Shown here: positions 1,236 to 28,455 of the stretch, in pieces
Position numbering within the stretch: the first letter of the stretch is position 1
Layout of the letters: each line of letters starts with the position of its first letter
Translations under genes and position numbers: made by a program
Notes under the pieces: generated by a model
What the model was told of the DNA's origin: nothing
Database searches by the model: none
The model's input: only the letters and a program-made list of their open reading frames with translations
Assembly (NCBI GenBank): GCA_030141605.1
Contig: JAQGDQ010001704.1
Span: 1-28,455 of the forward strand
Source of the DNA: Tubiluchus corallicola
Lineage: Eukaryota; Animalia; Priapulida
Reading direction: 5' to 3'
Length of the DNA: 28,455 bases

Positions 1236-1727
1236 TTATTGTTATTGTATTTGTTATTGTATTATCATCATAATATTACATCATCATCATCGTGTCACCG
1301 TTGTCGTCGTCGCTACCGTACCGTCATCACCATCAAAACCATCTCCACCAATGCCACTTTTACTCTCCTTGCTAATGTTTATTATTTATGCCTACCTGCC
1401 ACATTTTGTAATGATCATTTCTGTTCCTATGGCGTGGAATTTGTCCCACAGTTCCTTATTTTCTAATGAAACTTTGATGTTCTTATCATTGGATCTTGGT
1501 GGTCCAGCCATGATCTTTGTTTCAGGATTGAAGGCTGAAGCCATATGATGTAACTCAGCAAAGCGTTGAGCTCCATGATCCGCAGCTGTTGAAAAAACAG
1601 TTTAAATTTAAGTTTAAAAGTAAAGTTTCAAATTCACACAAATCAAACAATATCCGACATTTTATTGAGAAACAAATGAGAAACAAAGCTAAAATTGTGT
1701 GACTGGCAAATACACTAGGCAAATATT

Positions 1728-2731
1728 ATGTGTGACTGTTACCGACGTTATCTAGTTACGATGGCTAACGTAAATGGTGCGCCATCATTCCGAGAAGTCT
1801 TTCGACGTTGGTCATTAACTCGTTCGTATTGGTTCAGCGTGACCGCTTTATTGGTTTCTGTGCTGGTCTTAGTCCAGATATGTTTCATGCTCATAGATAT
1901 AAGATCGAACGACAGTTTTACCAACGAGTGGCACACAGAACGGAAGTCCGAAGACATACGGAAATCTCAGACACCAAGTTTGGTTCACCAGGCTTTGGAA
2001 GAGGTCCTGGAAAAGAGTGAGAAGCGTGGTGAGCCACAATTGGAGCTGAAGAATAAGGACCTAGACACTCCTCAAGGTTCTGATGTTGGCGATTCGAATG
2101 TTTCGCACTGTGTTGAAGTGGACTTTGCCAAGATATGTGATAATGGTGAAACATTTGTATCCAGCGTCCAATACTACATGGCTGCTAATAGCCGTCTTCC
2201 TATTGAGAACAGTATTCTACCGGGCTTTCAATATGCAATCATGGCAGATGTCTGTAAGAAGTCACATCGGACGGTCAAGTACCTCTTCATTGTCCATTCA
2301 AAAGCTGACCACTTTCGTCACCGGGACCTCATTCGCGCCACCTGGGGACGAAGTCTGTCAACTCGCAATGCCGCTCTTGTGTTTAACGTGGCGTCAGTTA
2401 ACGATTCCTCCTTACTTAAGGACTTGGCAGGCGAGGCCAGAAGGTACCATGACATTATCCAAAGTTCTCATCTGGAACATTACAGAAATATGACGTACAA
2501 GCACATGATGGGGCTTCAGTACGCTGGCATATTCTGTCCATCGCTAGATTACGTGTTCAAAGTTGATGATGACTGGTCAGTCGATGTCAGTGATCTATTA
2601 GCGGACCTTAAGATGATGGAGAATATTCCGGAGTTTCAGCACGGCTGGATATATTGTAAAGTTATACGTGGTCAGCCCAATAGGAATCCTAGAAGTAAAT
2701 GGTATGCCAAGAGGCAAACATACCCGGCTAA
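1728..2731 (+). CDS. GT31-family beta-1,3-galactosyltransferase-like type II membrane protein, coding exon 1
   Basis: Long ORF with an N-terminal TM segment (YWFSVTALLVSVLVLVQICFMLI) and a stem. GT31 motifs: LFIVHS..HFRHRDLIRATWG, EARRYHDIIQ..LEHYRNMTYK, the DxD motif FKVDDD, and PNRNPRSKWY..YP. It ends at the donor AA|GTAAGT (intron from 2732, phase 2). The start could be ATG 1728 or 1761. Confidence 0.9.
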
Positions 2732-2796
2732 GTAAGTAAAGGTCGCCGGCGTGCAGTGATGGTGGTGGTGGAGATGGTGGTGGTGGTGGCGGCGGC

Positions 2797-3871
<1,075 letters not shown>

Positions 3872-4330
3872 ATAATCACTATAATGTTTGTGTGGCGGCT
3901 ATTGCTAAATGATGCAAAGTAAGAAAGAAAGAAAATAAAAACAAAAGTGGACGATGAAAAGCAGAACGTGTTGAAAAGAAAGGCAAAAGCTAAAGAAAGA
4001 AAGACAGTTGGAAAACACAGAGGGGAAAATAATGAAACAAAAACCAAGTTACTGCAGACGAGTAGGCAGGTAGAAAGGTTGGAAGGCAGAAAAGAATAAC
4101 AAGTAGAGTAGGCCTAAGGAAAAGAAAAAAAACCAACAGAGAAGAAAAGGGAAAGTGTTAAAAAATAAGAAAAGAAGCAGTAAGGAAAATATATGAAAAT
4201 CAAGAAAATAATTTTCCTATACTTTCCAGAAAAAAGATAAGGAAAGAAAAGAACGTCAAAAATGTTACAAGAAAGATGAGTTCTTTTCACAAATTAATTT
4301 ATTTATTAATTTAACCAATTTTTATTTCAG

Positions 4331-4568
4331 GGCCTATCCTAACTACTGTTTTGGTGCATTCATCGTTTACAAGATGGACGCTGTACGTAAAATACTCAAA
4401 GTGGCGCCACAGATACCTTACTATCACGTGGACGATTTGCACGTGACTGGTCACGTGGCCCAGGCTGCTGGAATCTATCCACCAATCAGGATTGCTCTAG
4501 ACTTCCTCAAAAATGAGCAGCAGCTACATTCCTATAAGGGAGACAATAGATTCGTTGGTAGCGAGTGA
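4331..4568 (+). CDS. GT31-family galactosyltransferase-like protein, coding exon 2
   Basis: Acceptor tttttatttcag|G at 4330/4331. The phase-2 join gives YPAKAYPNYCFGAFIVYK (GT31 YPxYCxG motif) and VDDLHVTG (the EDV/DDV motif). Stop TGA at 4566-4568; spliced product 413 aa. Confidence 0.88.
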
Positions 4569-5869: not shown

Positions 5870-6346
5870 GTCGTAAATAAGCTTGTACTTATATTTCGAA
5901 ACCAATTTTCACAAAAGACACAATACTAATCTATAATATGCAATCATTTTACAAGATGCAGAACAATCAACTAAACATCTGTTTCATCAACTATCAACAA
6001 GCAGTTTTGCGTGAGAACGTACTATACAGTTCAGTACATGTGGAATGCACCTGGTTTCACACTTGTTGAAAAGCAATCCCCAATCCCACGGGTGTTAAAC
6101 TTTTCTATAATGATTTGCATAGGCGCTAGCAGTGAAATAAACAGACCTGGGTAACTGCGCTTAGTGCTAAGCTTGGACGGCAGTTTACCGTCTTCCGTCC
6201 CTTGCATGAAAAACATAGGTGGCCTTCGGTAGCGAAAGGGTTAAATTCTTATTTAAAACATCTCTTACAATCAATACTAACAGTCCTGTAAGATTTTTTG
6301 CGTCTCAACTGCTTTATGATTTGCATTCAGTTACAGTCTAGTCTTC

Positions 6347-6709
6347 TTATTTGCCATAACCGCCGTAACCATGACCACCATAACCATGGCCACCATGACC
6401 ATAACCTCCATAACCACCGTATCGGCGACCGCCGTAACCATGGCCACCATGACCATAACCATGACCACCATGACCATAACCGTAACCTCTGCGACCGTAA
6501 CCAATGGCATACAGGAGTGATCTGGCAAACACGGTAGCCGGACTCTGCGTGGTGGTGGTCGTAAGGAGATTGATTAGGTAATACAGGTTGTGTCCAACGT
6601 GACCACCGTATCCGCCGTGACCATAACCACCATGGCCGCCGTAGCCACCGTAACCACCATGACCGCCGTAACCACCATAACCAGCAGAGTGGGCAATGCA
6701 CAAATGGAC
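6347..6709 (-). CDS. Terminal exon C of secreted Gly/Tyr/His-rich protein (VHLCIAHSAGYGGYGGHGGY...GGYGK)
   Basis: Acceptor gtttctacag|GTC, phase 0. GGY/GGH repeats flank the core NLYYLINLLTTTTTQSPATVFARSLLYAIG; stop TAA. Joined to 11422..11460 it gives 133 aa with the signal MKSTFIVFLIFVLVHLCIA. Confidence 0.85.
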   Translation of the reverse strand, partial: VHLCIAHSAGYGGYGGHGGYGGYGGHGGYGHGGYGGHVGHNLYYLINLLTTTTTQSPATVFARSLLYAIGYGRRGYGYGHGGHGYGHGGHGYGGRRYGGYGGYGHGGHGYGGHGYGGYGK

Positions 6710-6888
6710 CTGTAGAAACAACAGAGTGTTAAAGTGTGATAAAAGCCACGCAAGCTGTAATCATGCCTAGGATCTCGGCCACTGAATTGTGTACTCTAAG
6801 TAAAGTAAATGATCAAGCAGCGGAATAAGTAAGTAACCAAGAAAAAAATGGTTGATAGGTATTTAGGCAGACAGAGAGGGAAGCAAAC

Positions 6889-7260
6889 GAGTGAGTGAGT
6901 GAGTGAGTTAGTGTGTGAGGAAATTATTGAGTGAGTCAGTGGCGAGTGAGTGGTGAGCGAGTGTATGACTGAGTGAGTGAGTGAGTGAGTGGTGAGTGAG
7001 CGTATGACTGAGTGAGTGAGTGTCCGTGTGTGTGAGTGAGTGGCTGAGTAAGTGATTGAGTGAGTGAGTAAGTGAGTAAATGACTGTATGACTGTATGAC
7101 TGAGTGAGTGTGTGACTGAGTGAGTGAGTGAGTTAGTGAGTGAGCGACTGAATTAGTGAGTGATTGAGTGTGTGAGTGTGTGTGTGTAGGTGAGTGACTG
7201 AGTGTTACTGAGTGAGTGAGTAAATGAGTGACTGTGTGACTGAATCAGTGAGTGAATGAG
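6889..7260. repeat. Degenerate (GAGT)n tetranucleotide repeat
   Basis: Directly visible; it reads (ACUC)n on the transcribed - strand. Confidence 0.92.
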
Positions 7261-8383
7261 GAAGGAGCGAATGAGAAAATAAACAAGTATGCAAGCAATA
7301 AAATGAGCAATTAGACGATTTCAATAAGTGAAAGAAGCTGATCAAGGAGCAGTGAGTAAAGAAACGTAACGAGAAAAGCACCTATTGCATCTTTGAATTT
7401 TAATGCAACAGCTAAATCTAAGCAGGACTTAAGTCAAATCAAATAACCCAATGTAACTGATGTAATTTATCTAGATTGACGCTTATTAATTTATTCTAAT
7501 CTGACGCATTAATTGAGTAATTTATAAATGTTCTGGCTCGGTGACTGAGTGACTCATCTTGAGAAAGTGACTAACTGACTAGCTGACCGATTGACTTATT
7601 TATCGACTGATCTTTCTGAACTAAAATACAGTGTAGATGTTCTCACACCTTTGGTGTGCAAATGAGTTATCAAATAATTTGAGCCCAGGCAGCGATAATA
7701 CACTACTCGTAGGTTAGTTAAGTCAATGAAAAGCATGTTTGACATTTCGTCGTGTTTTTGTAAACGAGAACACAAAATAGATGAGAACAATTGGTATTGA
7801 TAACAACAACAAGATGACATTTTATTAACAACAAAAATTTAAATAATTGCTAAAATTATAAACGACAAACTCAATGGAAACAGAGTAGCATGTCATGGCG
7901 TATTAAAGCAGTGGGTTCTTCCTTTCAACCAAATAGGGCCTATTACACTGTAAACTGCCACTGCAATACAATGACACAAAACGTATTATACTTAATATTT
8001 CAAAAACTCATTTTAGTTTTGTAAACACCAGAATATCTCTTCACTGTTTCTTGTGGTAGGCTTGCACCCATTTATGAGTGCAGGGCCTAATGCTGGTATT
8101 GTGTTGTAGAAGTTGAATAAACTGATTTCAATAATCCAACATTCATACTTTTGTTAATTGTCACTGGGTGGCATGGGCATCGTAATATTTATATCCCAGG
8201 GGCCTAGAAAATCACAATTCGGCCTTGGCAATAAAGCTGATATTTTAAACAGAACCGGGGATTAAAAAGCACAACAACATAGTGACTAACTGACTACTGG
8301 TACTGACTACTGTTACTGACTACTTTCGTGGCTTTTCTTTTAAAACAAGTTAGTATTTTATGTTAACAGCGTCAAATCACAGA

Positions 8384-8728
8384 TCATTTTTTCTTCGCAT
8401 AACCACTGTATCCGTGACCACCATATCCATGACCTCCATATCCATGACCACCGTATCCATGGCCTCCATAACCATGACCACCGTATCGGCGACCGCCGTA
8501 TCCATGACCACCGTAACCATGGCCTCTGTGTCTTAGAAAATAGTACAGCGTCAGTGCAGCAGGACTAACAGTAGTCGTTGTAGTGAGAAGATTAATCAGA
8601 GAGTACAAGTTGAATCCACCGTATCCACCGTGTCCATAACCGCCATGGCCATAGCCACCGTGTCCATAACCTCCATGACCATAACCACCACCGTGTCCGT
8701 ATCCATGACAATTAATATAACTGAATGC
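8384..8728 (-). CDS. Terminal exon B of secreted Gly/Tyr/His-rich protein (AFSYINCHGYGHGGGY...GYAKKK)
   Basis: Acceptor ttattcttctag|GCA, phase 0. It extends the listed ORF 8384..8608 by 40 codons of GHGGY repeats; core NLYSLINLLTTTTTVSPAALTLYYFLR; stop TGA. 127 aa if joined to 11422..11460. Confidence 0.85.
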   Translation of the reverse strand, partial: AFSYINCHGYGHGGGYGHGGYGHGGYGHGGYGHGGYGGFNLYSLINLLTTTTTVSPAALTLYYFLRHRGHGYGGHGYGGRRYGGHGYGGHGYGGHGYGGHGYGGHGYSGYAKKK

Positions 8729-9737
8729 CTAGAAGAATAAGTAACGATTGTCAAGGCGATCATTCCTCAACTCAAGGATTTTAATTTTTAGGCTTCCATT
8801 TAAAAATGAAATTAAAAATTCAATAAAAAATTTTTGCGCATGCGTAGTACGTATTGCACAGTAATGTATAGATTTGTTGAATTTTGCATAAAAAATCACA
8901 AAATGTATAAAAACATATTAAAAAATATTAATTTTAACATTAAAAGAATATTATAAATCATAAAAAATTATCATTTACAGTAAACAGTGTATTTATTCGG
9001 CGCATGAATACACACCAAACACGAAATGCTTGCGCCCGCTTGAGATGCTGCTTGCCGACGTGAGATTGTACACAACACCAAGAGTGTGGGGAGGGTTTAT
9101 AAAGACCTAAAATAACGTATAACTACTAAAATAATTATAGCGTCCCTACTTCGCGGAAATTCATTTATTGCGGGTGGGCCTGGAACGGAACACTCGCGAT
9201 AAGTGAGGGATATGCATAGTTTTATGTTGTTGCCAAACAAAATATTTAAATGTTTAGCATAGAACGAGCTTTCAAAGCTAAACAAATAGTAAGCAGCAAA
9301 AGCTCAAAATGGCTTTAACTAGCTGTTACTCTAATACAGAATAATTTCACAAATTAGGCTGCAGGGAGATTAGAGCTCTGCATGTTTAACCTAAGCTTTT
9401 TTAACGTTCTATTTACTTTTTTAATGAGTACTCGCAAAGACCTGCAAATAATATAGTTTTTATGTCAAACTAGGTAACAGACCGCGTATAATGGCTGAGC
9501 TTTTTAGCTGGTAATAAGAATCGATCCTAAAGACGATAATTACTTTGTGTTGTGACAAAAGAGCAACACGCCGCCGTCTTGCAATGGTACCGAAAAAACT
9601 GGTGCCGCATGTCAATGGATTTGTTGATGATATGATGGTTAGCACCACGTGTGTGGGCGTGCTTACAAGAGACGCGTGTCAGGAAGTAACGTAAGCACTA
9701 CACGGTGTTCTGGACTTTATGAATGATGACCTTCTAT

Positions 9738-9857
9738 TCTTGAACAATAAATTTCTACAAGTTCGAGTCCCGCATTGTCTTGAACAATGAATTTATACAA
9801 GTTCGAGTCCCGCATTGTCTTGAACAATGAATTTGTACAAGTTCGAGTCCCACATTG
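9738..9857. repeat. 40-bp tandem repeat x3
   Basis: Unit tcttgaacaat(a/g)aattt(c/a/g)tacaagttcgagtccc(g/a)cattg at 9738, 9778 and 9818. Confidence 0.95.
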
Positions 9858-10275
9858 TTTAACGTTTCATTACCGTCGAAATGATTGAAACGATTTTACA
9901 GATGCGAAAACTTGTCTCTTCGTTAAACCCAAAACCAGTAGTGAGACCTTCGCTTCCAAACGATCACATGGTCTGCCCGAACGCATTAGTCCAAACAAAC
10001 GGTTGCTGATTTTCAAAACATGCAACGGAAAACCAAAATTGTTTTTGTGTGTGATTTTCGCACCGTTTCTTAAGTGAAGTTCTGACGTGATGATTTCTGC
10101 TTTTGCAAAAGGTTTGCAGGCTGGTTACGAGAAAAATGTTGTATAACGAGGAATCCATTCATATTCGATAAGCAACTTTTGTTTGAATTCTTGCATAAAT
10201 TACCAGACAGTGAATAACTGCATTTGTTCTTTGAACTCCAGTGGATGTCAATGTCTTTTCTTGGTTCTGCTTTTA

Positions 10276-10776
10276 CTAACAGTAATGAGCATGATAATTA
10301 GAACTAACGAATCTTAGGCCACCATATCCACCATTTTTATGTTTTCTATATCTGTGACCTCCATTTCCATGGCCACCATATCCATGACTATTGAGTCCAT
10401 GACCACCATAGGTATGACCACCATATCCAGGTGGACAACCATGTCTATAAGTACCATATCCATGGCCACCATAACCATGGCCACCATAACCATGGCCACT
10501 GTATCCATGGCCACCATATCCATGGCCACCATACCCATGGCCACCGTATCCATGGCTACCATGTCCATGACCACCATACCCATTGCCGCCATACCCGTGA
10601 CTACCATATCCATGGCTACCACGACCAAGAGCGTAGAGAAGAGAGCGAGCAAAAGAATTTGTTGGTGCTGCCGTTGTTGTGGTTCTTAGCCGTATGTAAT
10701 AGGTGTTGTACCCGTTGCCGTAGCCGTGGCTTCCATAGCCACCGTAGAACGCCAAAGCCGCATCTTTCCGTATATC
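10276..10776 (-). CDS. Terminal exon A of secreted Gly/Tyr/His-rich protein (DIRKDAALAFYGGYG...HAHYC)
   Basis: Acceptor tatttctgctgcag|GAT, phase 0. Core YNTYYIRLRTTTTAAPTNSFARSLLYALG, then many GGHGY repeats; stop TAG. 179 aa with 11422..11460. Confidence 0.85.
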   Translation of the reverse strand, partial: DIRKDAALAFYGGYGSHGYGNGYNTYYIRLRTTTTAAPTNSFARSLLYALGRGSHGYGSHGYGGNGYGGHGHGSHGYGGHGYGGHGYGGHGYSGHGYGGHGYGGHGYGTYRHGCPPGYGGHTYGGHGLNSHGYGGHGNGGHRYRKHKNGGYGGLRFVSSNYHAHYC

Positions 10777-11421
10777 CTGCAGCAGAAATATGGATAGGTG
10801 GTATAATGACCACGTGCAGTCCACGTGGTAGTCCACGTGCATTTGACATTTTTATAGTGAGCTGAAGTTTTCGTGAACTGAAAGTTTTTGTAGTTTCTTA
10901 ATGGGTCACCATTCTTTGATCAATTATTTATTTAAAACAGGCCAGTCAAACGTGGTAGGTTTGTTAATCGTAATATGATTCCCGTATTTTGTATCAAATA
11001 ACCTAACAAGAATTGATGAAATTGTGTATGAAACAATTAACGAAGACGCCATACTTTATGGAGTTTTCAAATTCTTAAGCTAGCATGAATGACATCAATT
11101 TTTAAGTAACCCCCAATAACCAACGAATTTTCCATCATTTTTATTAAAAAATAACAACGTTCCTACTGCACACTAGTAGTCAGTGTGAGTAGAAACGTTG
11201 CTGTTTTTCAATAATAATGATAAAAAATTAGTTGGTTATTGTGGGTATTTAAAATGATAACGAAGCAGGAAATCATACTTGTCATAGTAATGGAGACGAT
11301 ATTTAAAACATGTGTGTTTCTAAAACGCAGAGAAATTGGAAAAATGAAGGAAGAAGAAGTAATAAACAGATAAGAAAAAAAGAAGGAAGTGAGTTAAAGA
11401 TTTAAAAATGAAAAAACTTAC

Positions 11422-11460
11422 CAAAACGAATATAAGAAACACAATAAAAGTCGATTTCAT
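11422..11460 (-). CDS. Signal-peptide exon MKSTFIVFLIFVL
   Basis: ttattttcag|GTGTAAAATT ATG AAA ... GTT TTG|GTAAGT: acceptor at 11471/11470, 10-nt UTR, 13 codons (MK plus a hydrophobic run), perfect phase-0 donor. Confidence 0.85.
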
Positions 11461-11519
11461 AATTTTACACCTGAAAATAAGCAAAGTGTTGCAATAACAA
11501 GCGCACAATAACTATTGTT

Positions 11520-11590
11520 ACAGCTGTTGTTGTTGCTGTTGCTGTTGCTGTTGTTGTTGCTGCTGCTGTCGTCGTCGTCGCTGTCGTCAT
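11520..11590. repeat. Short (TGT/TGC/GTC)n trinucleotide run
   Basis: Directly visible, just upstream of the acceptor at 11471. Confidence 0.85.
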
Positions 11591-12276
11591 ATTCGTCACT
11601 GTCTGCGTCAATATAAACAAAACTAAGAGTATTGCTATGCATGATTACAACTAGTTTCTTGCATAGCAAACAGAAACGCAGTACTTTAAAGGAAATAATA
11701 ACAATTCCGTGTATTTAATCTTGAAATAAAAATCACATCAACGATTAGTTATTACCGTTCATTCCTATTGAAATATCAATTTCATTATCAATAAACCGAT
11801 GTCAAGGTTTTTCACTTTCGCTTTACTGATTCAAGTGCAAAGCAAGCGATTATAATCAAAAGATAAACTACAAGGAATTTAATCTTACCGTTAAGACGTT
11901 CAACAAAAACACGAAAGATCTCAGAGATGATAAAAACGGAAAACATTTGATGTAATAGTCAGATACGCACTGTTGATACACCTCGCCTGGGTAAACCCAA
12001 TTTGTCGGTTTGGAGTTTCCAAAGCGAAAGTGTGTCCCAGTATACACGCACTGGTACCCAGTCCGACCCAATTTTTTTATGAATTAAGACCATTCTTTCT
12101 TAACTAACAGTGTGCCAGCATTGTCCGTGTGTTACGGTGTGTATTGTTTACTGCAGCCTGTAAGTGGCGCAAAGCTAATAAGTGTTTGGGCGTTAATTTG
12201 GCTGTTTGATTAGAATTATTTCAAGGTCAGTTTTTTCAAGACAAATTACAAAAGCCGACGCAGACTCGATAACCAA

Positions 12277-13205
<929 letters not shown>

Positions 13206-13457
13206 TTTCTCCAACCAGTTATTTTTTTGCTCTCTTTTCATACATTTTTCTCTGCCTCTTATTAAGCACTGCTTTCTTATTTCTCCAATAAGTTCGTATC
13301 CGCCGTACCCTTCCCGTTTTTTCCCTTCTCCTCTTTTCTAAGAAAATAGTTTTGCTCCATATTATTATTATTTTACTTTATTAAAGACAAAATAACCCGT
13401 TATCCTTCAACGGAATAGTTTAAATTCGAAATGCTCGTTGCAAAATGTTGAAATTAA

Positions 13458-14430
13458 AGGACAAGAAAAGGGGTGCCTGAAGCAGGATTCAGAAAAATTG
13501 CCATAAAAAATTATATTACTTTATAGCATATATGGTATTGCGTTAAAAGGAATTTTTGTTTGTCTTTATTTTAAATTTCCCACAATAGTGTTATTGACAA
13601 TACTGACAATACTCGCCATTACATGACGTCATATACGCACAACGTAAACCAGGGGAAGAAAAGGCAATGTTAAATTATGACCCAAAAAACTTTCCGTGCA
13701 AATCTGTATTACTTAACATTTCGCTTACCTGCTGGAAAGACTTATGCAACTAGAAATAATAATTTAAAATGTTTGTGCCAATTGGCAAAATGTTGCTGAC
13801 TCACCATCCAGGGTGCGCCACTCACTAAACAAAAACGTATTTTTAATCTTATTGATATGATACAGTAATTTAAAATTTTACTCAGTTAGTGACGTGTGTG
13901 CTACGAACGCTCTGATTATTTTTCAAACTTTACTCAATGTTATCTAAACTTGTTTCAAACGACGTACCATCAAAATGGCTGCGTCTAATAACGGTCATCG
14001 CGGGAGTTTAAATTTATCTTTTATACAGCGTTACTGCCGATTGAAGTCCTGCACGCAAAAAGGCAGTATGTAAGTGATATAAAATTTCAAGACGAATTTT
14101 TCAAGCTTTATGTTTATGAAGGGTTTTCTTTGTCTAAAAAAACGCTTTATTTGATGCACCATGCTGACTCATGATACAGACATACCCTGACTGACAGCCA
14201 GGTGGAGCCAGTTAGCATATGCAAAATTAAAGGAAAGAACAACTCACTGAGTATGTTGGATCTATTTTGCTTTTGTCACTTATGCTACGAATGCTCTGAT
14301 TATTTTCTCAAACTTTACGCAATGTTATCTAAATTTGTAGAGACAGAGGGAGAGAGAGGGGGGTGAGAGAGAGAGAAGGAGAAAGAGAGAGAGAAAAGGA
14401 GAAAGAGAGAGAGAAAGAGAGAAAGAGAGC

Positions 14431-15316: not shown

Positions 15317-15347
15317 CTAGGAAAGCGTGGCAGATGCTGCTGCGTAG

Positions 15348-15616
15348 AAGCAGTTCTGCGTTTTAGCAGTCGCCCATCCACTTACGAACCTCCCCTGATG
15401 TTGCTTAACCCTTCTAGTTAAAATTCACAGTCTCCATTTCTCTTGTTATCACGCCTACCCGGTTAGGTACTCACCATAAAAGCAGTACTGCATTTTAGCA
15501 GTCACCCATCCACTTACGAACCTACCCTGATGTTGCTTAGCCGTTATAGTTAAAATTCACAGTCTCCATTTCTCTTGTTCTCACGCCTACCCGGCTAGGT
15601 AGGTACTCACCATAAA
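15348..15616. repeat. ~135-bp tandem duplication x2 overlapping a splice donor
   Basis: aagcagt..ttttagcagtc.cccatccacttacgaacct...aggtactcaccataaa occurs twice in tandem. Confidence 0.92.
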
Positions 15617-15857
15617 TTCTGTGTCCACCATAGCCATGACCGTGACCATAACCGTAACTTGGCTGATGACCAATGTAACCGTAGCTTCCACCGTTGTGGT
15701 ACCCCAGAGCACGTAGAAGCCGTCTGGCATATTTCGATGGTGACGCCGAGGTGGTCAGGTTCTGTCCAATCAGGACGGCAAGTGGCAGGTACCTATTGTA
15801 GTTGTTGTTGCCGTAACCGCTAGCTTGATGATTGCCCCCGTACGCAGAGCAGTATGT
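15611..15857 (-). CDS. Body exon of secreted Gly/Tyr-rich protein, middle gene (TYCSAYGGNHQ...GGHRIY)
   Basis: Acceptor tttctttgtccgcag|ACA, phase 0. Core LPLAVLIGQNLTTSASPSKYARRLLRALGYHNGGSYGYIGH. Family-like composition stops exactly at the donor TATG|GTGAGT (15611/15610). Confidence 0.8.
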
Positions 15858-16083
15858 CTGCGGACAAAGAAAAACCATTCGGAATATTTTTAGAAGTGAA
15901 AAATACTTAAGTGAGAAAGGTTATCATCACAAATACATCTCAAAATTTTTATTCCTATATGTTTATGTCGTACAGTGCATGGTGACAAGTTTAACCAGGA
16001 CTTCAAGGACTTACAGTAAAGAGAATCTGTAAAATGTGATAAATGTCTGATAATTAATGGCCTGATAAGTAAAATATATTAAA

Positions 16084-16400
16084 TGTCAATGAAGAACGCC
16101 CAGGAAGCCAGACTTCCAAATAAGGAATTAAGGTGCGGTGGTCACGTGACTGCTCATCCACGTGACTTCCAAATAAGGAAGTGCAGATTCTGGACAGACT
16201 GCGCACGCAGCCTGGCACGGATGCTGAAGCCACCCGCCGCAGGACTTAGATTAGACAGGGAACTCAGAAGAGGAAGTCAAGAGATCAGGGGCTTGGCATT
16301 GCTATACCTTTCTTATATATTGTGATGTGTGTAATAAAAGTGTTATTTATTAATCCAGCTCTTATAGCTTTGTCATTACCCAAACGCCCATAAACAGCTA
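16084..16400 (+). mobile_element. Possible solo LTR or other TE fragment with CArG/E-box motifs
   Basis: GC-richer block starting TGT, followed by an AT-rich stretch with AATAAA at ~16333. No convincing TSD was found and the right end is uncertain. Confidence 0.35.
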
Positions 16401-17066
16401 CACACCTCGCTCACATACGCACTACCACTATACAAACCAAGCACAATAAATTTACTCTTACAGTAAAGCACTTCTAATGACATTTTACGCCTGAACTATA
16501 TATATGCCTTTCAGAAAATGAATTACGTCATTAGAAGTGCAATTTGTAAGCCATTTAGTACTAATTAAACCTTCCTCTGTGTATATATATCCGTTAAGAA
16601 GTAATACGATTGAGAAGGTTTGAAATGACAAGAATATTTTTATAATATTTTCATTGGTAATACCGCGCAAAGTATTCACCGTAAAAATCACATAATACCA
16701 TTACCATCATCGTCATTATCATTATCGTCAGCATTATCAGTGTCATCAGATCCGATGTCGTCGTCATCATCATCGTCACCATTATTATCATAACAGCTCA
16801 TTATTTTTCATCACTGTTTTGCCAGCCCAATCAAGCTGTGTATCGTTGGAAAAACTTTGCCAAGAATCTCAAACATTAGATCAATAAACTTTGTATTCTA
16901 TTATAGTATACAAATTTCAGTGTTCGTTTTTGCGAAAAACGTTTAGTTCCTAGGGGGTGTTTGCCTCATTGTCTTGACAAAAAACTGACTGACCAATGAC
17001 CAGTCTTTATTATGTAACTAGTTACTAGCTATTGTAAAGAAAAAAATCTTGCAATTAACTTGTCAT

Positions 17067-17451
17067 CAGGGGCGTATCATGACTTTACGACGCCCTAGGC
17101 TGGTAGTTCCGCCCGTCCATCTCTATTGTGAATTTATGTAATGAGCAGATTAAACAATTACTTGTGGTGTATTAGAAACACTATTAACCTAGTTTCTGCG
17201 TGGTCATTATTAATTACAAGTATTTGCATAGCGCATATATTCAAACAGGCTGCGCAACTGCTTATTGTGTAATACCTTGCACCTGTTCGTTATGTGGCAC
17301 TTATACAAAAGCTTCACTCAGTAACTGCCTGAGGTGTGTTATAAAATGAACCCTTTACATGAATATGAAAGTACACACGTTTTTCGAGTAGAATAAGAAT
17401 TTTGGCGCTCTAGACTATACCCTAGTTAGCCTGTCGGTTAATACGGTCCTG
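17067..17451. mobile_element. Degenerate hAT-like MITE
   Basis: CAGGGGCGTAT ... ATACGGTCCTG (9/11 inverted match) with subterminal cgccctaggc/cgctctagac motifs. No TSD seen. Confidence 0.4.
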
Positions 17452-18060
17452 TGTCCACAAGAAGCTCGTTAACTAGAACATTAACAATAGTGCATGGCAC
17501 CTTTAGACTGATCGAATTTACATGCCTTAGAGTTGTAAAAAAGTCAAAATGCCTTTTAAGTCTCTCTATTTCTTTATTTTTCCTTCAAAAGCATTTCGTC
17601 CATCACGCAATTCATAAGCTGTGCAGACAGATACAATAATAAAAATGACAGTAATTAAAAATTTAAAAAAATCTGCATTTTTATTATTTCACCTCTCTGT
17701 AGTCATCATCACCATCATCAAACGCCCGTCACGTCTATTGTAGACACTGGGCAGGCAGAATTCTAAAATCAAAGAAATCTGCCTTCAGACAGGTAAACGC
17801 AGCAGTAATCCAGCAAAAAAAACTAGACACTGCTACGCCAGTGGCTTGTCAGCACCACTTCCGTTAAAGTAGTGTAGTCTGTAGTCTGTATAGCTGATGA
17901 AGTTCGCAAGGGGCGAAATCTTCTGAAGGAAAAACAAAAATTTTTTGACACTTGACTTTTTTACGGTTACGACCACGACGAATCTAGGCAAAGCTCTCTC
18001 TCATTTTCATACTTCTATACTTCTTGTAAGTACGTTAGCATTAAATTTAGTAATACTTAC

Positions 18061-18111
18061 ATATACAAAAACAACGAACAATACGATTATTCCGACTGCA
18101 AACTGCTTCAT
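18061..18111 (-). CDS. Signal-peptide exon MKQFAVGIIVLFVVFVY
   Basis: ATG at 18111, 17 codons, phase-0 donor TAT|GTAAGT. An upstream acceptor ttttcctttcatgtag lies near 18148. Joining to 15857 gives ...VFVYTYCSA-YGG, a canonical CxA cleavage site. Confidence 0.82.
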
Positions 18112-18256: not shown

Positions 18257-18581
18257 AATTTCGCGTTCCCGCCACTAGTTCTTCGCTGTTACATGCATTT
18301 CGCCATTCGTTATTTAGACGGGCACTAGCGCCTGCTTTTCAGCAAACGCATTGCACAAAAAACTGGTGCTGTACCTCTTAGTTCAGATCTTAAAACTTGC
18401 CTAGTTTTAATACAACACACTGACTATCTTACAGTAGCATTGTGCTTCAATTTTCGCTTTCGCAAACACGTGCAACACGCTCGAAGAATATTTTTTTCTG
18501 TTTAAAATTATGTTAGTTTGTGATATCATCAATCGTTGGGCTCGCCTGCCGTTAATTAAGCTTTTAGTCTATTATTTAATT
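18257..18581 (+). repeat. Dispersed direct repeat, copy 1 (probable TE fragment)
   Basis: Aligns with 20930..21338 (gccactagttctt..ctgttacatgcatttcgccattcgtta ... aattaagctttt..tctattatttaat) and lacks ~80 bp present in copy 2. Confidence 0.88.
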
Positions 18582-20929: not shown

Positions 20930-21338
20930 AATTTCACATTCGTGCCACTAGTTCTTTGCTGTTACATGCATTTCGCCATTCGTTACTTAGACGGACACCA
21001 GCGCCTGCATGTCAGCAAACGCATTCCACAAAAAACAGGTGCTGTACCTCTTAGTTCAGATGTGTTAGTTTGTAACGAACTGCACACGTTCGACAGCTCT
21101 TGCGTAAGCACAGCGGTAAATTTGAAATTTGAATTTTTATCTTAAAACTTGCCCAGTTTTAGTACAACACAGTAGCACTGTACAATATATTACAGTAGCA
21201 CTGTACTTCAATTTTCACTTTCGCAAACGCATGCAACACGCTCGATGAATTATTTTGCTGTTTAAAATGTTAGTTTGTGATGTCATCAATAGTTGGGCTC
21301 GCCTGCCGCTAATTAAGCTTTTGATCTATTATTTAATT
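20930..21338 (+). repeat. Dispersed direct repeat, copy 2
   Basis: See 18257..18581. Confidence 0.88.
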
Positions 21339-22992: not shown

Positions 22993-23439
22993 CTAATGAT
23001 AACCACCTTTTCTGTAACCACCGTAACCGTGCCCTCCGTAACCTCCATAACCATGTCCGCCATAGCCGCCATAACCATGACCACCGTAACCACGCCTACC
23101 GTAACCACCATAGCCATGCCCGCCGTAGCCACCGTAACGGCCGTAACCGCCGTAATATTTGGGATAATGGCCAATATAGTAGTAAGATCCGCCATGGTAG
23201 TAACCAAGGTAACGAAGAAGCTTTTTGGCAAACTTCGACGTGGATGTGGTAGATCCAGATTTGAGGTGCAAAAATGGGTAACCATAACGGCCAAGCGGTC
23301 CATAATTGTAGCCGTCATACAAATGATTGCCATAACCGTAACCGTGCCCACCATAACCTCCATAACCATGTCCACCGTATCCACCACTGCCACCGTAACC
23401 GTAACCACCGCCATAACCACCATATGAAGAGCTGGCAAC
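22993..23439 (-). CDS. Terminal exon of secreted Gly/Tyr-rich protein, upstream gene (VASSSYGGYGG...RKGGYH)
   Basis: Acceptor ttcttatttag|GTT, phase 0, extending the listed ORF 22993..23322 by 39 codons. Core YPFLHLKSGSTTSTSKFAKKLLRYLGYYHGGSYYYIGH; GGHGYGGY repeats; stop TAG. 164 aa with 25896..25943. Confidence 0.87.
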   Translation of the reverse strand, partial: VASSSYGGYGGGYGYGGSGGYGGHGYGGYGGHGYGYGNHLYDGYNYGPLGRYGYPFLHLKSGSTTSTSKFAKKLLRYLGYYHGGSYYYIGHYPKYYGGYGRYGGYGGHGYGGYGRRGYGGHGYGGYGGHGYGGYGGHGYGGYRKGGYH

Positions 23440-23689
23440 CTAAATAAGAATTAGAGGAGTTGTAAATGTACGCTTAATACATAATTTAAGTAATGCTAAA
23501 CCTAGTTAGTAACTGGATGGGTAGACCTTCGGAAAACTGTTTCTCGGTGGTTCATCTGCTATATCGCACCGACTATTCACATTGATGATACGGTGCTTAT
23601 TCAAAGGCTGGTAATTCGTTGTTTTATAATAAAAGATTATCCCTGATAGTAAGCTTGGGTTATACCCGCGTCAAGCATCTTATTATGTA

Positions 23690-23977
23690 GTTAAAGTCAT
23701 TGTTCCCTCGACTACTCTGTGCAGAATTCCAGGCTCTGCAAGCTCCAACTTGCTAAGTACTGGCTCACCTCACCTTACTGTACAAGGAGTGTTTAATTTA
23801 ATCAGTTGCCATGAGTCTGAGCCCTTGCTTCGGGTCCTAATTGTAGCTATTGTATAGTGGTTTAACCTTGTAAGTTATGTGTGTGTATAAGTTATTTAAT
23901 TGTTTTTTATCGTTGTTGTAATTGTGTATTTTGAATATGAAGTTTATCTTTGGAATAAACGATAAATCAATCAATCA
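23690..23977 (+). mobile_element. Degenerate 3' end of a non-LTR retrotransposon (CR1/L2-like); a related tail lies at 24341..24446
   Basis: T-rich 3' UTR ending ggAATAAAcgataa(ATCA)n; a remnant KSLFPR resembles the SFFPR motif at LINE ORF2 C-termini. The tail recurs on the far side of the (CT)n tract. Confidence 0.5.
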
Positions 23978-24034
23978 TTCTCTCTCTCTCTCCTTCTCTC
24001 ATTTTCTTCTCTCTCTCTCTCCTCTCTTCTCTCT

Positions 24035-24109
<75 letters not shown>

Positions 24110-24160
24110 TTCTCTCTCTCTCTTCTCTCTCTCTCTCTTCCCCCCTCTCTTCTCTCTCTC

Positions 24161-24217
<57 letters not shown>

Positions 24218-24219
24218 CC

Positions 24220-24260
<41 letters not shown>
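23978..24260. repeat. (CT)n microsatellite
   Basis: Directly visible. Confidence 0.95.
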
Positions 24261-24261
<1 letters not shown>

Positions 24262-24642
24262 TTCTCAGTATTTCTATATTTTAATTTTGATTTAGTCATA
24301 GTAAGGATATTCTAGCTTCTATTGTTAAGATTTTTAATGATAGTTATGTGTATTTATGTCATTTAATTGTTGTTTATTGTTGTTGTTACTGTATTTTGAA
24401 TAAGAACTTTATGTTTGGAATAAACGCTAAGTCAATCAGTCAGTCACTCGATCAAACAAAATCAAGCCTTTGCATCACAGTGCTGACATTTGCACAGTTC
24501 GCATGTTACAAATTTTGATGTAAAATCTTGAAGTCTATCAAAGTGTAAACATGGTTCGTGCAGTGTGGTATTTTGTCGTATCGTATTTTCTGAATAGCCG
24601 GACATAGAATTAGCAAGTACTTTCATCTCAATAAACTCTTAA

Positions 24643-24804
24643 AGCAAAGCACAAGAAAACCCTTCATTTACATAAGACTTAAAAAATTCGTCTTGAAATT
24701 TTATACCACTTATACTACTGAGTTTTTGCATACAGGACGAGCAAGAGAGCGGGAGAGAGAGAGAAAGAAAGAGAGAGAAGAAGAGAGAGGGAAGAAGAGG
24801 AGAG

Positions 24805-24868
<64 letters not shown>

Positions 24869-25518
24869 AACATGTAAATTAGTGAAGAAAACGAATTTAT
24901 AAAGAGACAAACAAGTGAGTAAAGAATAGGACTTGCATCGGCAGTAATGCCGTATAAAACATGTAAATTTAGTCTCCCGCGTTTACCGTTAGACGCAGCC
25001 ATTTTGACGATAAGTCATTTGAAACAAGTTTAGATAACATTGAGTGAAGTTTGAAAAAATAATCAGAGCTTTCGTAGCGCACAAGTCACTAACTAAGTAA
25101 AATTTTAAATTACTGTATCTTGTCAATAAGATTCAAAATTACGTTTTTTTGGTTAGTGAGTGGTGCACCCTGGAAGTGAGTCAACGACATTTTGCCAATT
25201 AGTGAAAACATTTTAAATAATTAATAATTTTATTTTCTAGTTACATAAGTCATTCAACCAGGTAAATTTAACGTTAAGTAGCTTAAATTGCATGGAAAGT
25301 TTTTTGCGACATAGTTTAACATTTCCTTTTCTTCCCCTAGTTTATACGTTTTGCGTATATGACGTCATGTAATGGCGCGGTCAGAACAGCATTTAAAATC
25401 AAAACAAACAAAAATTCCTTTCAACTCCAGTACGATATATGCTTAAATAAGATAAAGTAATATATTTTTTTAAGGCGACTTTTCTGAAGCCTACTTCATG
25501 TACCCCTATTCTTGTCCT
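24643..25518 (-). mobile_element. Non-autonomous TTAA-flanked DNA transposon (Kolobok/T2-like), second copy, intronic
   Basis: TTAA at 24639..24642 and 25519..25522; termini (agcaa)AGCACAAGAAAA and ATTCTTGTCCT. Inverted homologue of 13458..14135, with an internal (GA)n at ~24738..24865. Confidence 0.75.
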
Positions 25519-25895
25519 TTAAGCTTTTGATTGGCCAGTCCTTGTTACAAATGTACCATTATCATACTCACAGACTGAGGATGACAATCAAGGGCATCTG
25601 CCGCTGCTTTTGCAAGGCGGCAATCTATATTACTGTAGACTCTGCTTATATAAAATGGTTGTACGTATGTAAAAAAAGATTATCACTGATGATGACAGCA
25701 GTAGTCTGTCGAAACGTTTGACATGATTTTCTAACTATGTAAATTACAAGTTTTAATAAAATTGTGGTGTTTTAACTATAAATCAAAGTGCATGTAATGA
25801 CTTTTGAGACATCCTACATTAATAATTGAGATATACGTCACGCAGGTTGCCCTATTTACGTGTAATTACGAGTTATTTCAGGTAAAAGTACTTAC

Positions 25896-25943
25896 ACAAG
25901 CCGTTGCTAGAATAACAAAGACTAGAAGTAGAATTCCTTTCAT
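25896..25943 (-). CDS. Signal-peptide exon MKGILLLVFVILATAC
   Basis: attttgcag|GTAACAAC ATG AAA ... GCT TGT|GTAAGT: acceptor at 25952/25951, 8-nt UTR, 16 codons, phase-0 donor. Confidence 0.85.
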
Positions 25944-27774: not shown

Positions 27775-28399
27775 TTAGATCAGATTAGATTTTATAGATT
27801 TATTTCGCAATAAACATACATATGCATTACATGTGCATCGATAATCAGTTTTTGATAATACAAAATTATGATACAATTCATGAATTCTGCGCTAGAGACC
27901 TTAGAAGCTAGCTTATGGTAGGCCACTGGAATTAGTTACGAAAAAAATTATATACAGATACAATATTACAATATATACAAATATATAGGGTGGGAAGTAA
28001 TAAAAATATTATTATACTAGAGGGGAAGTTTTTGAAAATGAAAAACAACAAATCATGATTGAGTGATCAGTTATATGTTTCAAGTAAGTTTATTTTATAA
28101 TTTTTTTTAAATATGGACAGCGAGTTGGCATTTTTAATAGCTGGAGCAATTGAATTCCATATGTAAGGGCCATTGTATTTAATAGAAAATTTTCCAACAT
28201 TAGTGTTGCACTGAATGTAGTGATAGTTCAGTCTATAAGATGTGCCGTAATTATGTATCTCAGCATTCAAACAAAAATAATCAGTAAATAAGGGAGGCAA
28301 TAATTTATGAGAGAATTTGTACATGAAAATGGCAGTTTGGAACTTATTAATGTCATAAATGTTTAGAAAGTTTAGTCTTTTAAATATTGGTGGTGTATG
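27775..28399 (-). mobile_element. 5'-truncated LINE (L2/Crack/CR1 group): ORF2 C-terminus (28067..28399) plus 3' UTR and tail
   Basis: Translation HTPPIFKRLNFLNIYDINKFQTAIFMYK...IHNYGT...FSIKYNGPYIWNSIAPAIKNANSLSIFKKNYK matches the typical post-RT C-terminus (HxYxTR, GxxxWNxLP, SxxxFK). The 3' end has AATAAA followed by ATCTA-like repeats. Confidence 0.8.
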
Positions 28400-28455
28400 A
28401 AAAATATAACAACAAACATATACACAACCAACTGATCAACAGTCTGACGGTGCTG

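What the first reader, a model, noticed from the sequence alone, without database searches (positions are those of the whole stretch)
6347..11470. One signal-peptide exon, three mutually exclusive terminal exons: a splice-cassette system for secreted Gly/His/Tyr proteins
Seen: three paralogous, intact exons (10276..10776, 8384..8728, 6347..6709) each begin with a good phase-0 acceptor, supply the C-terminal part of a signal peptide (DIRKDAALA / AFSYINC / VHLCIA) and end in their own stop. Reading the gaps 6710..8383 and 8729..10275, I found no ATG-hydrophobic-GT(A/G)AG exon like the three clear ones elsewhere in the window. The only donor nearby is MKSTFIVFLIFVL|GTAAGT at 11422, and joining it to the two distal exons gives textbook signal peptides. 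Inference: one promoter/leader makes three entirely different mature proteins (179, 127 and 133 aa precursors) by alternative last-exon choice. This 'constant leader, variable payload' design would have arisen by exon rather than whole-gene duplication.
Basis: partly seen in the sequence, partly recalled or inferred. Interest (0 to 1): 0.88.

Follow-up and report, generated by a model that had tools for sequence, protein, structure and literature searches.

The report
One leader, three Gly/His/Tyr protein endings
An animal gene cluster has three old, intact exons for glycine/histidine/tyrosine-rich proteins but only one start-and-signal-peptide exon in front of them, so one gene likely makes three different secreted, probably structural, proteins by choosing its last exon; this gene design is known from other animals, and no RNA was available to confirm it here.

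Summary
Observation confirmed. On the minus strand one 13-codon leader exon (11460-11422, phase-0 GTAAGT donor) precedes three paralogous terminal exons (10776-10276, 8728-8384, 6709-6347), each with a strong phase-0 acceptor, its own stop and no Met. Relaxed scans found no private leader or usable micro-exon in either gap. New here: the three exons form a clade apart from the two neighbours that have their own leaders; their synonymous sites are saturated (pS 0.74-0.84, pN 0.19-0.25) with no stops; in a public DNA run 11 of 15 coding differences are silent. So the distal exons have long been translated and need an upstream start. Against: no RNA run held the locus, so no junction is shown; one contig carries a stop in the last exon; DNA contigs do not bridge the gaps. 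Best reading (0.75): alternative last-exon choice coupled to polyadenylation. The design is known (beetle DH37/DH47 gene, three last exons in Aethina; Drosophila PGRP-LC), and this scan noted it before on other DNA. The protein family had no database homologue. A post-hoc 25-bp RNA pairing next to the last acceptor is an untested lead. New variant of a known kind; interest 0.45.

The parts
11889..11960 (-). Likely non-coding 5' exon of the gene. The donor after 11889 is seen; the upstream boundary is unknown and 11960 is a placeholder.
   Evidence: Second-strongest donor-like site in 6710-12200, with no Met in its phase-0 frame; its role is inferred
11634..11668 (-). Hairpin in intron 1; candidate docking site that can pair with 6744-6771
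   Evidence: (I4); found post hoc, untested
11422..11470 (-). Shared leader exon LC: acceptor at 11470, ATG at 11460, 13 codons (n- and h-region of a signal peptide), phase-0 GTAAGT donor
10276..10776 (-). Terminal exon B3, 166 codons plus stop; Gly 33%, Tyr 15%, His 13%; intron from LC 645 nt
8384..8728 (-). Terminal exon B4, 114 codons plus stop; Gly 37%, Tyr 17%, His 12%; intron from LC would be 2693 nt
   Evidence: acceptor region covered in run X1
6744..6771 (-). Candidate selector, ending 34 nt upstream of the B5 acceptor
   Evidence: found post hoc, untested
6347..6709 (-). Terminal exon B5, 120 codons plus stop; Gly 39%, Tyr 17%, His 12%; intron from LC would be 4712 nt
   Evidence: acceptor region covered in run X1
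15537..18111 (-). Neighbouring paralogue: leader LB (18111-18061) and body B2 (15857-15537); the tail of B2 runs into a tandem duplication
22993..25943 (-). Neighbouring paralogue: leader LA (25943-25896) and body B1 (23439-22993)

Best explanation
One gene with a single start-and-signal-peptide exon (11460-11422) likely splices that exon onto any one of three duplicated last exons, so that one promoter would yield three secreted Gly/His/Tyr-rich proteins with entirely different mature chains. Shown by sequence: one phase-0 donor, three phase-0 acceptors, three intact paralogous frames without Met, no private leader in the gaps, purifying selection on all three. Inferred: transcription starts upstream of a non-coding exon ending at 11889; polymerase sometimes reads past B3, which has no AATAAA/ATTAAA for about 850 nt after its stop; the leader donor then joins B3, B4 or B5 and cleavage follows the chosen exon; signal peptidase removes the leader plus 6-9 residues of the body. 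Inferred from composition only: the products are matrix-hardening proteins (two Gly/Tyr/His blocks around a conserved hydrophobic-Thr-run-basic core) that would condense on leaving the acidic secretory route and cross-link through His and Tyr, as annelid jaw and squid beak proteins do.
For: Three leaders for five bodies; none in the gaps under strict or relaxed scans. B3-B5 contain no Met, and their first 25 residues are too polar to act as a signal peptide behind a 1-2 codon micro-exon (best 8-residue hydropathy 0.35-1.25, against best 10-residue 3.3-3.8 in the joins). pS 0.74-0.84 against pN 0.19-0.25 among B3/B4/B5 with open frames; in a neutral simulation only 5-6% of B4 or B5 copies stay stop-free at 0.3 substitutions per site. 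In run X1, 11 of 15 listed coding differences in B4/B5 are synonymous (expected 25-30%; P 1e-4 to 6e-4); after dropping 5 sites in repeat blocks that may be paralogue reads (one of them the stop variant) it is 7 of 10 (P 0.003-0.01); the only indel listed is an in-frame 9-nt insertion in B4. B3/B4/B5 form a clade against B1/B2 (97/94 on the core; 85/92 on full length). LC stops within the h-region and B4 and B5 begin with residues that extend it. Same design in the beetle DH37/DH47 gene.
Against: No spliced read or transcript was seen. One X1 contig (depth 23.9 of 75) has an in-frame stop at B5 codon 29: a null allele or a decayed extra copy. No X1 contig bridges either gap, so the assembly there is not independently confirmed. 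Donor and acceptor scores are my own simple matrices and SignalP was not available. The poly(A) argument rests on two hexamers only. The structural role has no direct support: no homologue was found, and the tissue and the taxon are unknown.
Confidence: 0.75

Rival explanations
1. B4 and B5 are separate genes whose own leader exons exist but are missing from this assembly or haplotype, or are too atypical for my scans.
For: The two upstream paralogues are ordinary one-leader genes. In Anopheles cuticular genes the first coding exon is often only 3-36 nt and hard to annotate (PMC2259329, passages). X1 does not bridge the gaps.
Against: No N in the window; both gaps would have to be hit; a micro-exon would leave no h-region; no strong ATG-donor pair in either gap; X1 matches the 240 nt upstream of the B5 acceptor with 1 other letter and no listed indel.
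Confidence: 0.09
2. B4 and B5 are recently orphaned: whole genes that lost their leaders and are now silent but not yet decayed.
For: A stop variant in one X1 contig at B5 codon 29; B2 nearby has a disrupted tail, so turnover happens in this cluster.
Against: Needs two recent losses that left no trace; both acceptors are intact; differences in X1 are mostly silent and the indel keeps the frame.
Confidence: 0.08
3. The distal exons are translated, but take their leader mainly from LB or LA by long-range splicing, or from another pre-mRNA by trans-splicing.
For: All three donors and five acceptors are phase 0, and all 12 downstream joins are in frame with a hydrophobic core. Trans-spliced groups of exons look like this in gene-structure scans (PMC3228551, passages).
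Against: LC is the nearest donor and the strongest in 6710-12200; LB and LA have their own bodies 2.2-2.5 kb away and would need 7-19 kb introns.
Confidence: 0.08

Closest known systems
Beetle DH37/DH47 CRF-like diuretic hormone gene (Veenstra 2019, PMC6585902; passages read)
   Same: First coding exon with the signal peptide is spliced to alternative duplicated last exons, each holding a whole mature product; three such exons and three mRNAs in Aethina; origin by exon duplication.
   Different: Neuropeptides; the first exon also carries part of the precursor. Here the shared exon holds only 13 residues of signal peptide, the payloads are 114-166-residue low-complexity proteins, and the junctions are not shown.
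Drosophila PGRP-LC, CG42235 and pipe 3' variable regions (Pan et al. 2018, PMC6191721; abstract and passages read)
   Same: Tandemly duplicated 3' cassettes chosen by splicing coupled to polyadenylation; a docking site can lie upstream of a 5' splice site and pair with selectors before the cassettes.
   Different: Large shared protein parts; one docking site pairs with two selectors and is conserved across species. Here only B5 has a candidate selector and conservation could not be tested.
Nereis jaw proteins (NVJP-1) and squid beak His-rich proteins (DgHBP) (review PMC9999432; passages read)
   Same: Gly about 35%, His and Tyr rich; the motifs GYGHG and GYGGH (NVJP) and GHGGY (HBP type GHGX'Y; 4 copies in B4, 3 in B5, read) occur here.
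   Different: NVJPs are 32-40 kDa with 27% His and many acidic residues; HBPs are 16-19% Ala. These proteins are short, basic, 12-13% His, with 0-2 acidic residues and a conserved core not matched in any search. Likeness of composition, not shown homology.
Insect calcitonin A/B and CNMa genes (PMC4237046; passages read)
   Same: Shared signal-peptide exon with alternative downstream exons giving different mature products.
   Different: Neuropeptide precursors with further shared exons; unrelated sequences.

Membership tests
Tandem alternative last-exon (multiple poly(A)) genes | Shared upstream coding exon whose donor phase fits every cassette | tested here: met
   LC donor phase 0; three in-frame joins of 179, 127 and 133 aa
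Tandem alternative last-exon (multiple poly(A)) genes | Homologous terminal exons, each with acceptor and stop and without a start of its own | tested here: met
Tandem alternative last-exon (multiple poly(A)) genes | A poly(A) site after each cassette | tested here: inconclusive
   First AATAAA/ATTAAA at 9425 after B3, 7826 after B4, 5754 after B5; hexamers only, in AT-rich DNA
Tandem alternative last-exon (multiple poly(A)) genes | Transcripts showing each junction | not testable with these tools
   No RNA holder listed; X1 behaves as DNA and nothing from X2 was laid
True mutually exclusive exon cluster (Pillmann et al. 2011 definition) | Cluster is flanked by further exons on both sides | tested here: not met
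   Each exon ends in its own stop; no shared downstream coding exon; untranslated downstream exons cannot be excluded. Definition
PGRP-LC-type competing RNA pairing | One docking site pairs with selectors before two or more cassettes | tested here: not met
   Dock 11630-11670 gives -33.1 kcal/mol with B5 (rank 3 of 378 tiles, the first two being itself) but -19.4 with B4 (rank 73) and -14.4 with B3 (rank 244)
PGRP-LC-type competing RNA pairing | Cross-species conservation or compensatory change of the pairing | not testable with these tools
   No genome held and no related locus found
R&R (CPR) cuticular proteins | R&R chitin-binding consensus | tested here: not met
   No Pfam family at E<=0.1 for B1, B3, B4, B5 (4 of 5 bodies scanned)
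NVJP / DgHBP His-rich hard-tissue proteins | Gly/His/Tyr pentapeptide repeats | tested here: met
   Translations against motifs quoted
NVJP / DgHBP His-rich hard-tissue proteins | Size and composition (NVJP 32-40 kDa, 27% His, acidic; HBP Ala-rich) | tested here: not met
   114-166 residues, 12-13% His, 0-2 acidic residues
NVJP / DgHBP His-rich hard-tissue proteins | Sequence homology outside the repeats | tested here: inconclusive
   Profile of the core found no credible relative; no direct pairwise test against NVJP or HBP sequences was run

The most novel reading that the evidence does not exclude
A lineage-specific family of hardening proteins is run as a splice-selected cassette library: one promoter and a 13-codon leader deliver three wholly different mature structural proteins, and a hairpin in intron 1 (11634-11668) opens to pair with a selector 34 nt before the most distal acceptor, an RNA switch that picks the far cassette over the two nearer ones. 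That would extend RNA-pairing control of 3' cassettes beyond flies, to a gene in which the entire mature protein is exchanged and where the ratio of isoforms could tune a biological material.
Probability: 0.2. Interest if true: 0.72.

Novelty: new variant of a known kind. Interest (0 to 1): 0.45.

Why it matters
If the junctions are real, a structural-protein repertoire has grown here by copying only the payload exon behind one promoter and signal peptide, beside sister genes that kept the ordinary one-leader layout. Both routes sit in one 20-kb cluster and can be compared directly. Annotation pipelines would call B4 and B5 pseudogenes or miss them, as they lack a start codon. The proteins are a small Gly/His/Tyr family with motifs like those of jaw and beak proteins and no homologue in the databases searched, so they are candidate material-forming proteins. 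The gene design itself is known, which caps the surprise.

Tried and rejected
Expression: no RNA holder listed; run X2 (RNA by guess) laid 0 records on 6000-12150; neither result is evidence about expression. X1 covers introns and exons alike and repeats at depth 1,000-26,000, so I read it as DNA; it has uncovered bins (e.g. 9296-9707, 10120-10325, 7316-7481, 7648-7730), which prove nothing. No genome is held. Homologues: B5 residues 1-80 gave 2 weak composition hits among 7971 candidates scored; the core alignment gave 0 of 7511 candidates; the HMMER scan of 1.84 billion representatives gave 2 hits, both unrelated tandem-repeat proteins; ESM Atlas gave no usable hit for B5 or B1; metagenome contigs gave 597 pattern matches, none confirmed; Rfam none. 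These blanks are weak for low-complexity proteins. AlphaFold on the 5-row core gave pLDDT 60.8, pTM 0.26, two helices: uninformative, no fold search run. An intronless start for B5 from the ATG at 6764, which would need a frameshift, was rejected because X1 lists no indel there. B4/B5 as mere 3' UTR of a B3 transcript (donor-like site at 10204) was rejected because it cannot explain selection on their frames. Docking sites in the LC-B3 intron: best duplexes -24.4 and -24.0, equal to the shuffled mean (12 shuffles each). The taxon was not determined: the best named hit of the neighbouring galactosyltransferase is Priapulus caudatus at 44%, too far to assign. Literature: 10 searches found no paper on this family or on a shared signal-peptide exon for Gly/His/Tyr structural proteins; the library lacks most subscription papers. 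I recall, unverified, that the Manduca cuticular-protein annotation (Dittmer et al. 2015) or the Manduca genome paper describes alternatively spliced CPR genes; Dittmer 2015 is not held, and if it does, novelty falls further. PMC12758981, PMC5377371 and PMC13073896 (passages) added nothing decisive. No supplements were read.
Full report
Setting. The window is animal DNA without N. On the minus strand lie five paralogous Gly/Tyr/His-rich exons: B1 23439-22993, B2 15857-15537, B3 10776-10276, B4 8728-8384, B5 6709-6347. Each has two low-complexity blocks around a shared core of about 45 residues: a hydrophobic stretch, a Thr run and a basic-hydrophobic stretch. Downstream lie a T-box exon (minus, ending at 1395) and a two-exon galactosyltransferase gene on the plus strand. 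No genome is held. The taxon is unresolved: the galactosyltransferase is 79% identical to an unnamed Logan protein and 44% to a Priapulus caudatus protein.

Observation. A strict scan finds three leader exons on the minus strand, LA 25943-25896, LB 18111-18061 and LC 11460-11422, all ending in phase-0 GTAAGT. LA and LB sit 2456 and 2203 nt before B1 and B2; LC sits 645, 2693 and 4712 nt before B3, B4 and B5, giving 179, 127 and 133 aa. The acceptors of B3, B4 and B5 are in the top 0.7, 3.6 and 1.7% of 1692 AG sites on my simple score. With GC donors, any phase and no ATG allowed, the two gaps give no ATG-hydrophobic exon and one weak no-ATG candidate at 9874. Of all ATG-to-phase-0-donor stretches only two weak ones exist, at 9150 and 7647. 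No remnant of a leader is detectable by alignment (6 of 6 comparisons within shuffles). B3-B5 have no Met. A micro-exon, common in insect cuticular genes (3-36 nt; PMC2259329, passages), would not help, because the bodies lack an h-region of their own. LC has an acceptor 10 nt before its ATG, and a strong ATG-less donor lies at 11889, so a non-coding first exon is likely (inference).

Are B4 and B5 alive? Among B3, B4 and B5 synonymous sites are saturated (pS 0.84, 0.74, 0.75) while pN is 0.25, 0.19, 0.19, and no frame has a stop; repeat blocks align ambiguously, so these values are rough. In a neutral simulation without indels 5-6% of B4 or B5 copies stay open at 0.3 substitutions per site and about half at 0.05, so a very recent loss is not excluded by this test alone. 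Run X1, which I read as DNA of probably another individual (it covers introns; some sites differ in all contigs laid), lists 15 coding differences in B4/B5: 11 silent, 3 missense, 1 stop; 25-30% silent is expected by chance (P 1e-4 to 6e-4). Without 5 sites in repeat blocks, one of them the stop, it is 7 of 10 (P 0.003-0.01). The only indel listed is an in-frame 9-nt insertion in the Thr run of B4. The stop, at B5 codon 29 in one contig of depth 23.9 out of 75, counts against: it is a null allele or a decayed extra copy, and I cannot tell which. X1 matches the B5 acceptor and 240 nt upstream (1 other letter) and the B4 acceptor region, but no contig bridges either gap. Exons under purifying selection, with no start of their own, need an upstream phase-0 start exon; LC is the nearest.

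Origin. B3, B4 and B5 group apart from B1 and B2 (97/94 on the core; 85/92 on full length; five rows, none left out). This fits duplication of the last exon behind LC, and equally whole-gene duplication with ancient loss of the leaders.

Mechanism. Most likely (0.75) this is alternative last-exon choice coupled to 3'-end formation. The first AATAAA/ATTAAA after B3 is about 850 nt past its stop, against about 560 and 590 nt for B4 and B5, which would allow read-through; this is weak. All junctions are inferred: no RNA holder was listed, which says nothing about expression. By the definition in PMC3228551 (passages) such terminal exons are multiple poly(A) sites, not true mutually exclusive exons.

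A possible selector. An inverted repeat (I4) extends to a 25-bp duplex between a hairpin in intron 1 (11634-11668) and 6744-6771, 34 nt before the B5 acceptor: -33.1 kcal/mol, against -14.9 and -9.7 for the parts folded alone. In a 30-nt window scan it scores -30.2; 0 of 100 dinucleotide shuffles reached that (minimum -27.0). Among 181 real 150-nt tiles 6 did, and the other 5 lie in microsatellite tracts. Against: it was found post hoc; in the untargeted scan shuffled minima reached -29.9 and -29.7; B4 and B3 have no counterpart (ranks 73 and 244 of 378); and intron 1 may be removed before B5 is transcribed (inference). In PGRP-LC the docking site lies upstream of a 5' splice site (PMC6191721, passages), so the position is not impossible. 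It is a lead only.

The proteins. Gly 33-39%, Tyr 15-17%, His 12-13%, net basic, 0-2 acidic residues. No Pfam family for the 4 of 5 bodies scanned, and no credible homologue. The repeats match motifs quoted for Nereis jaw proteins and squid beak His-rich proteins, but size and composition differ (PMC9999432, passages). A hardening or adhesive matrix role through His and Tyr is my inference from composition alone. Loose ends in X1 suggest more Gly/Tyr-rich genes elsewhere in this genome.

What is known. [quoted passage not shown] Earlier notes of this scan describe the same design on other DNA; I did not test those loci. Ten searches found no report for this family or for Gly/His/Tyr structural proteins with a shared leader; a Manduca cuticular-protein paper that may bear on this could not be read.

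Verdict. Real feature, probably a shared-leader gene, unproven without RNA. New variant of a known kind: known architecture, carried to the extreme in which only 13 signal-peptide residues are shared, in an uncharacterised structural-type family. Interest 0.45; 0.72 if the RNA switch proves real (probability about 0.2).

Noticed in passing
window 15345-15616 (-): A tandem duplication of about 137 nt (90% identical) overlaps the end of B2, whose last 24 or so codons are not Gly/His/Tyr-rich; B2 seems to have lost its tail and may be decaying.
   Followed up: partly
window 1395-1585 (-) and 1758-4568 (+): A T-box exon (Pfam PF00907; best solved-structure hits TBX3 and TBX5) with a phase-1 acceptor at 1585 lies downstream of the cluster on the same strand; a two-exon galactosyltransferase gene (PF01762) lies head to head with it on the plus strand, probably nested in an upstream intron of the T-box gene.
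   Followed up: partly
window 10776-10750 (-): B3, the exon nearest the leader, begins with four charged residues in its first five and gives the least typical signal peptide of the three joins; it may be cleaved late or poorly.
   Followed up: partly
window 11100-11254: A 155-nt palindrome (59-nt arms, 85% complementary) in the LC-B3 intron, MITE-like; its loop is complementary (18 nt, 83%) to a short repeat in the B4 3' UTR (8294-8324), not above shuffles.
   Followed up: partly
window 10204 (-): A donor-like site 72 nt after the B3 stop could open a 3' UTR intron.
   Followed up: no
window 10810-11409, run X1: Two haplotypes of the LC-B3 intron differ by about 7% plus indels, while 6676-6952 upstream of B5 lies in one contig of double depth; possible constraint near the candidate selector.
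   Followed up: no
run X1 loose ends at window 6669, 8482, 8705: Contigs that run on into other Gly/Tyr-rich frames, one resembling the family core, point to further family members outside the window.
   Followed up: no
window 13454-14050 and 24928-25522: Two inverted copies (80% over 624 nt) of a dispersed repeat flank LB/B2 and B1; further shared fragments at 18257-18581 and 20930-21338 may mark the B1/B2 duplication.
   Followed up: no
window 28067-28435 (-): A 122-codon frame that looks like the C-terminal end of a LINE reverse-transcriptase ORF (recalled likeness; no Pfam hit).
   Followed up: partly
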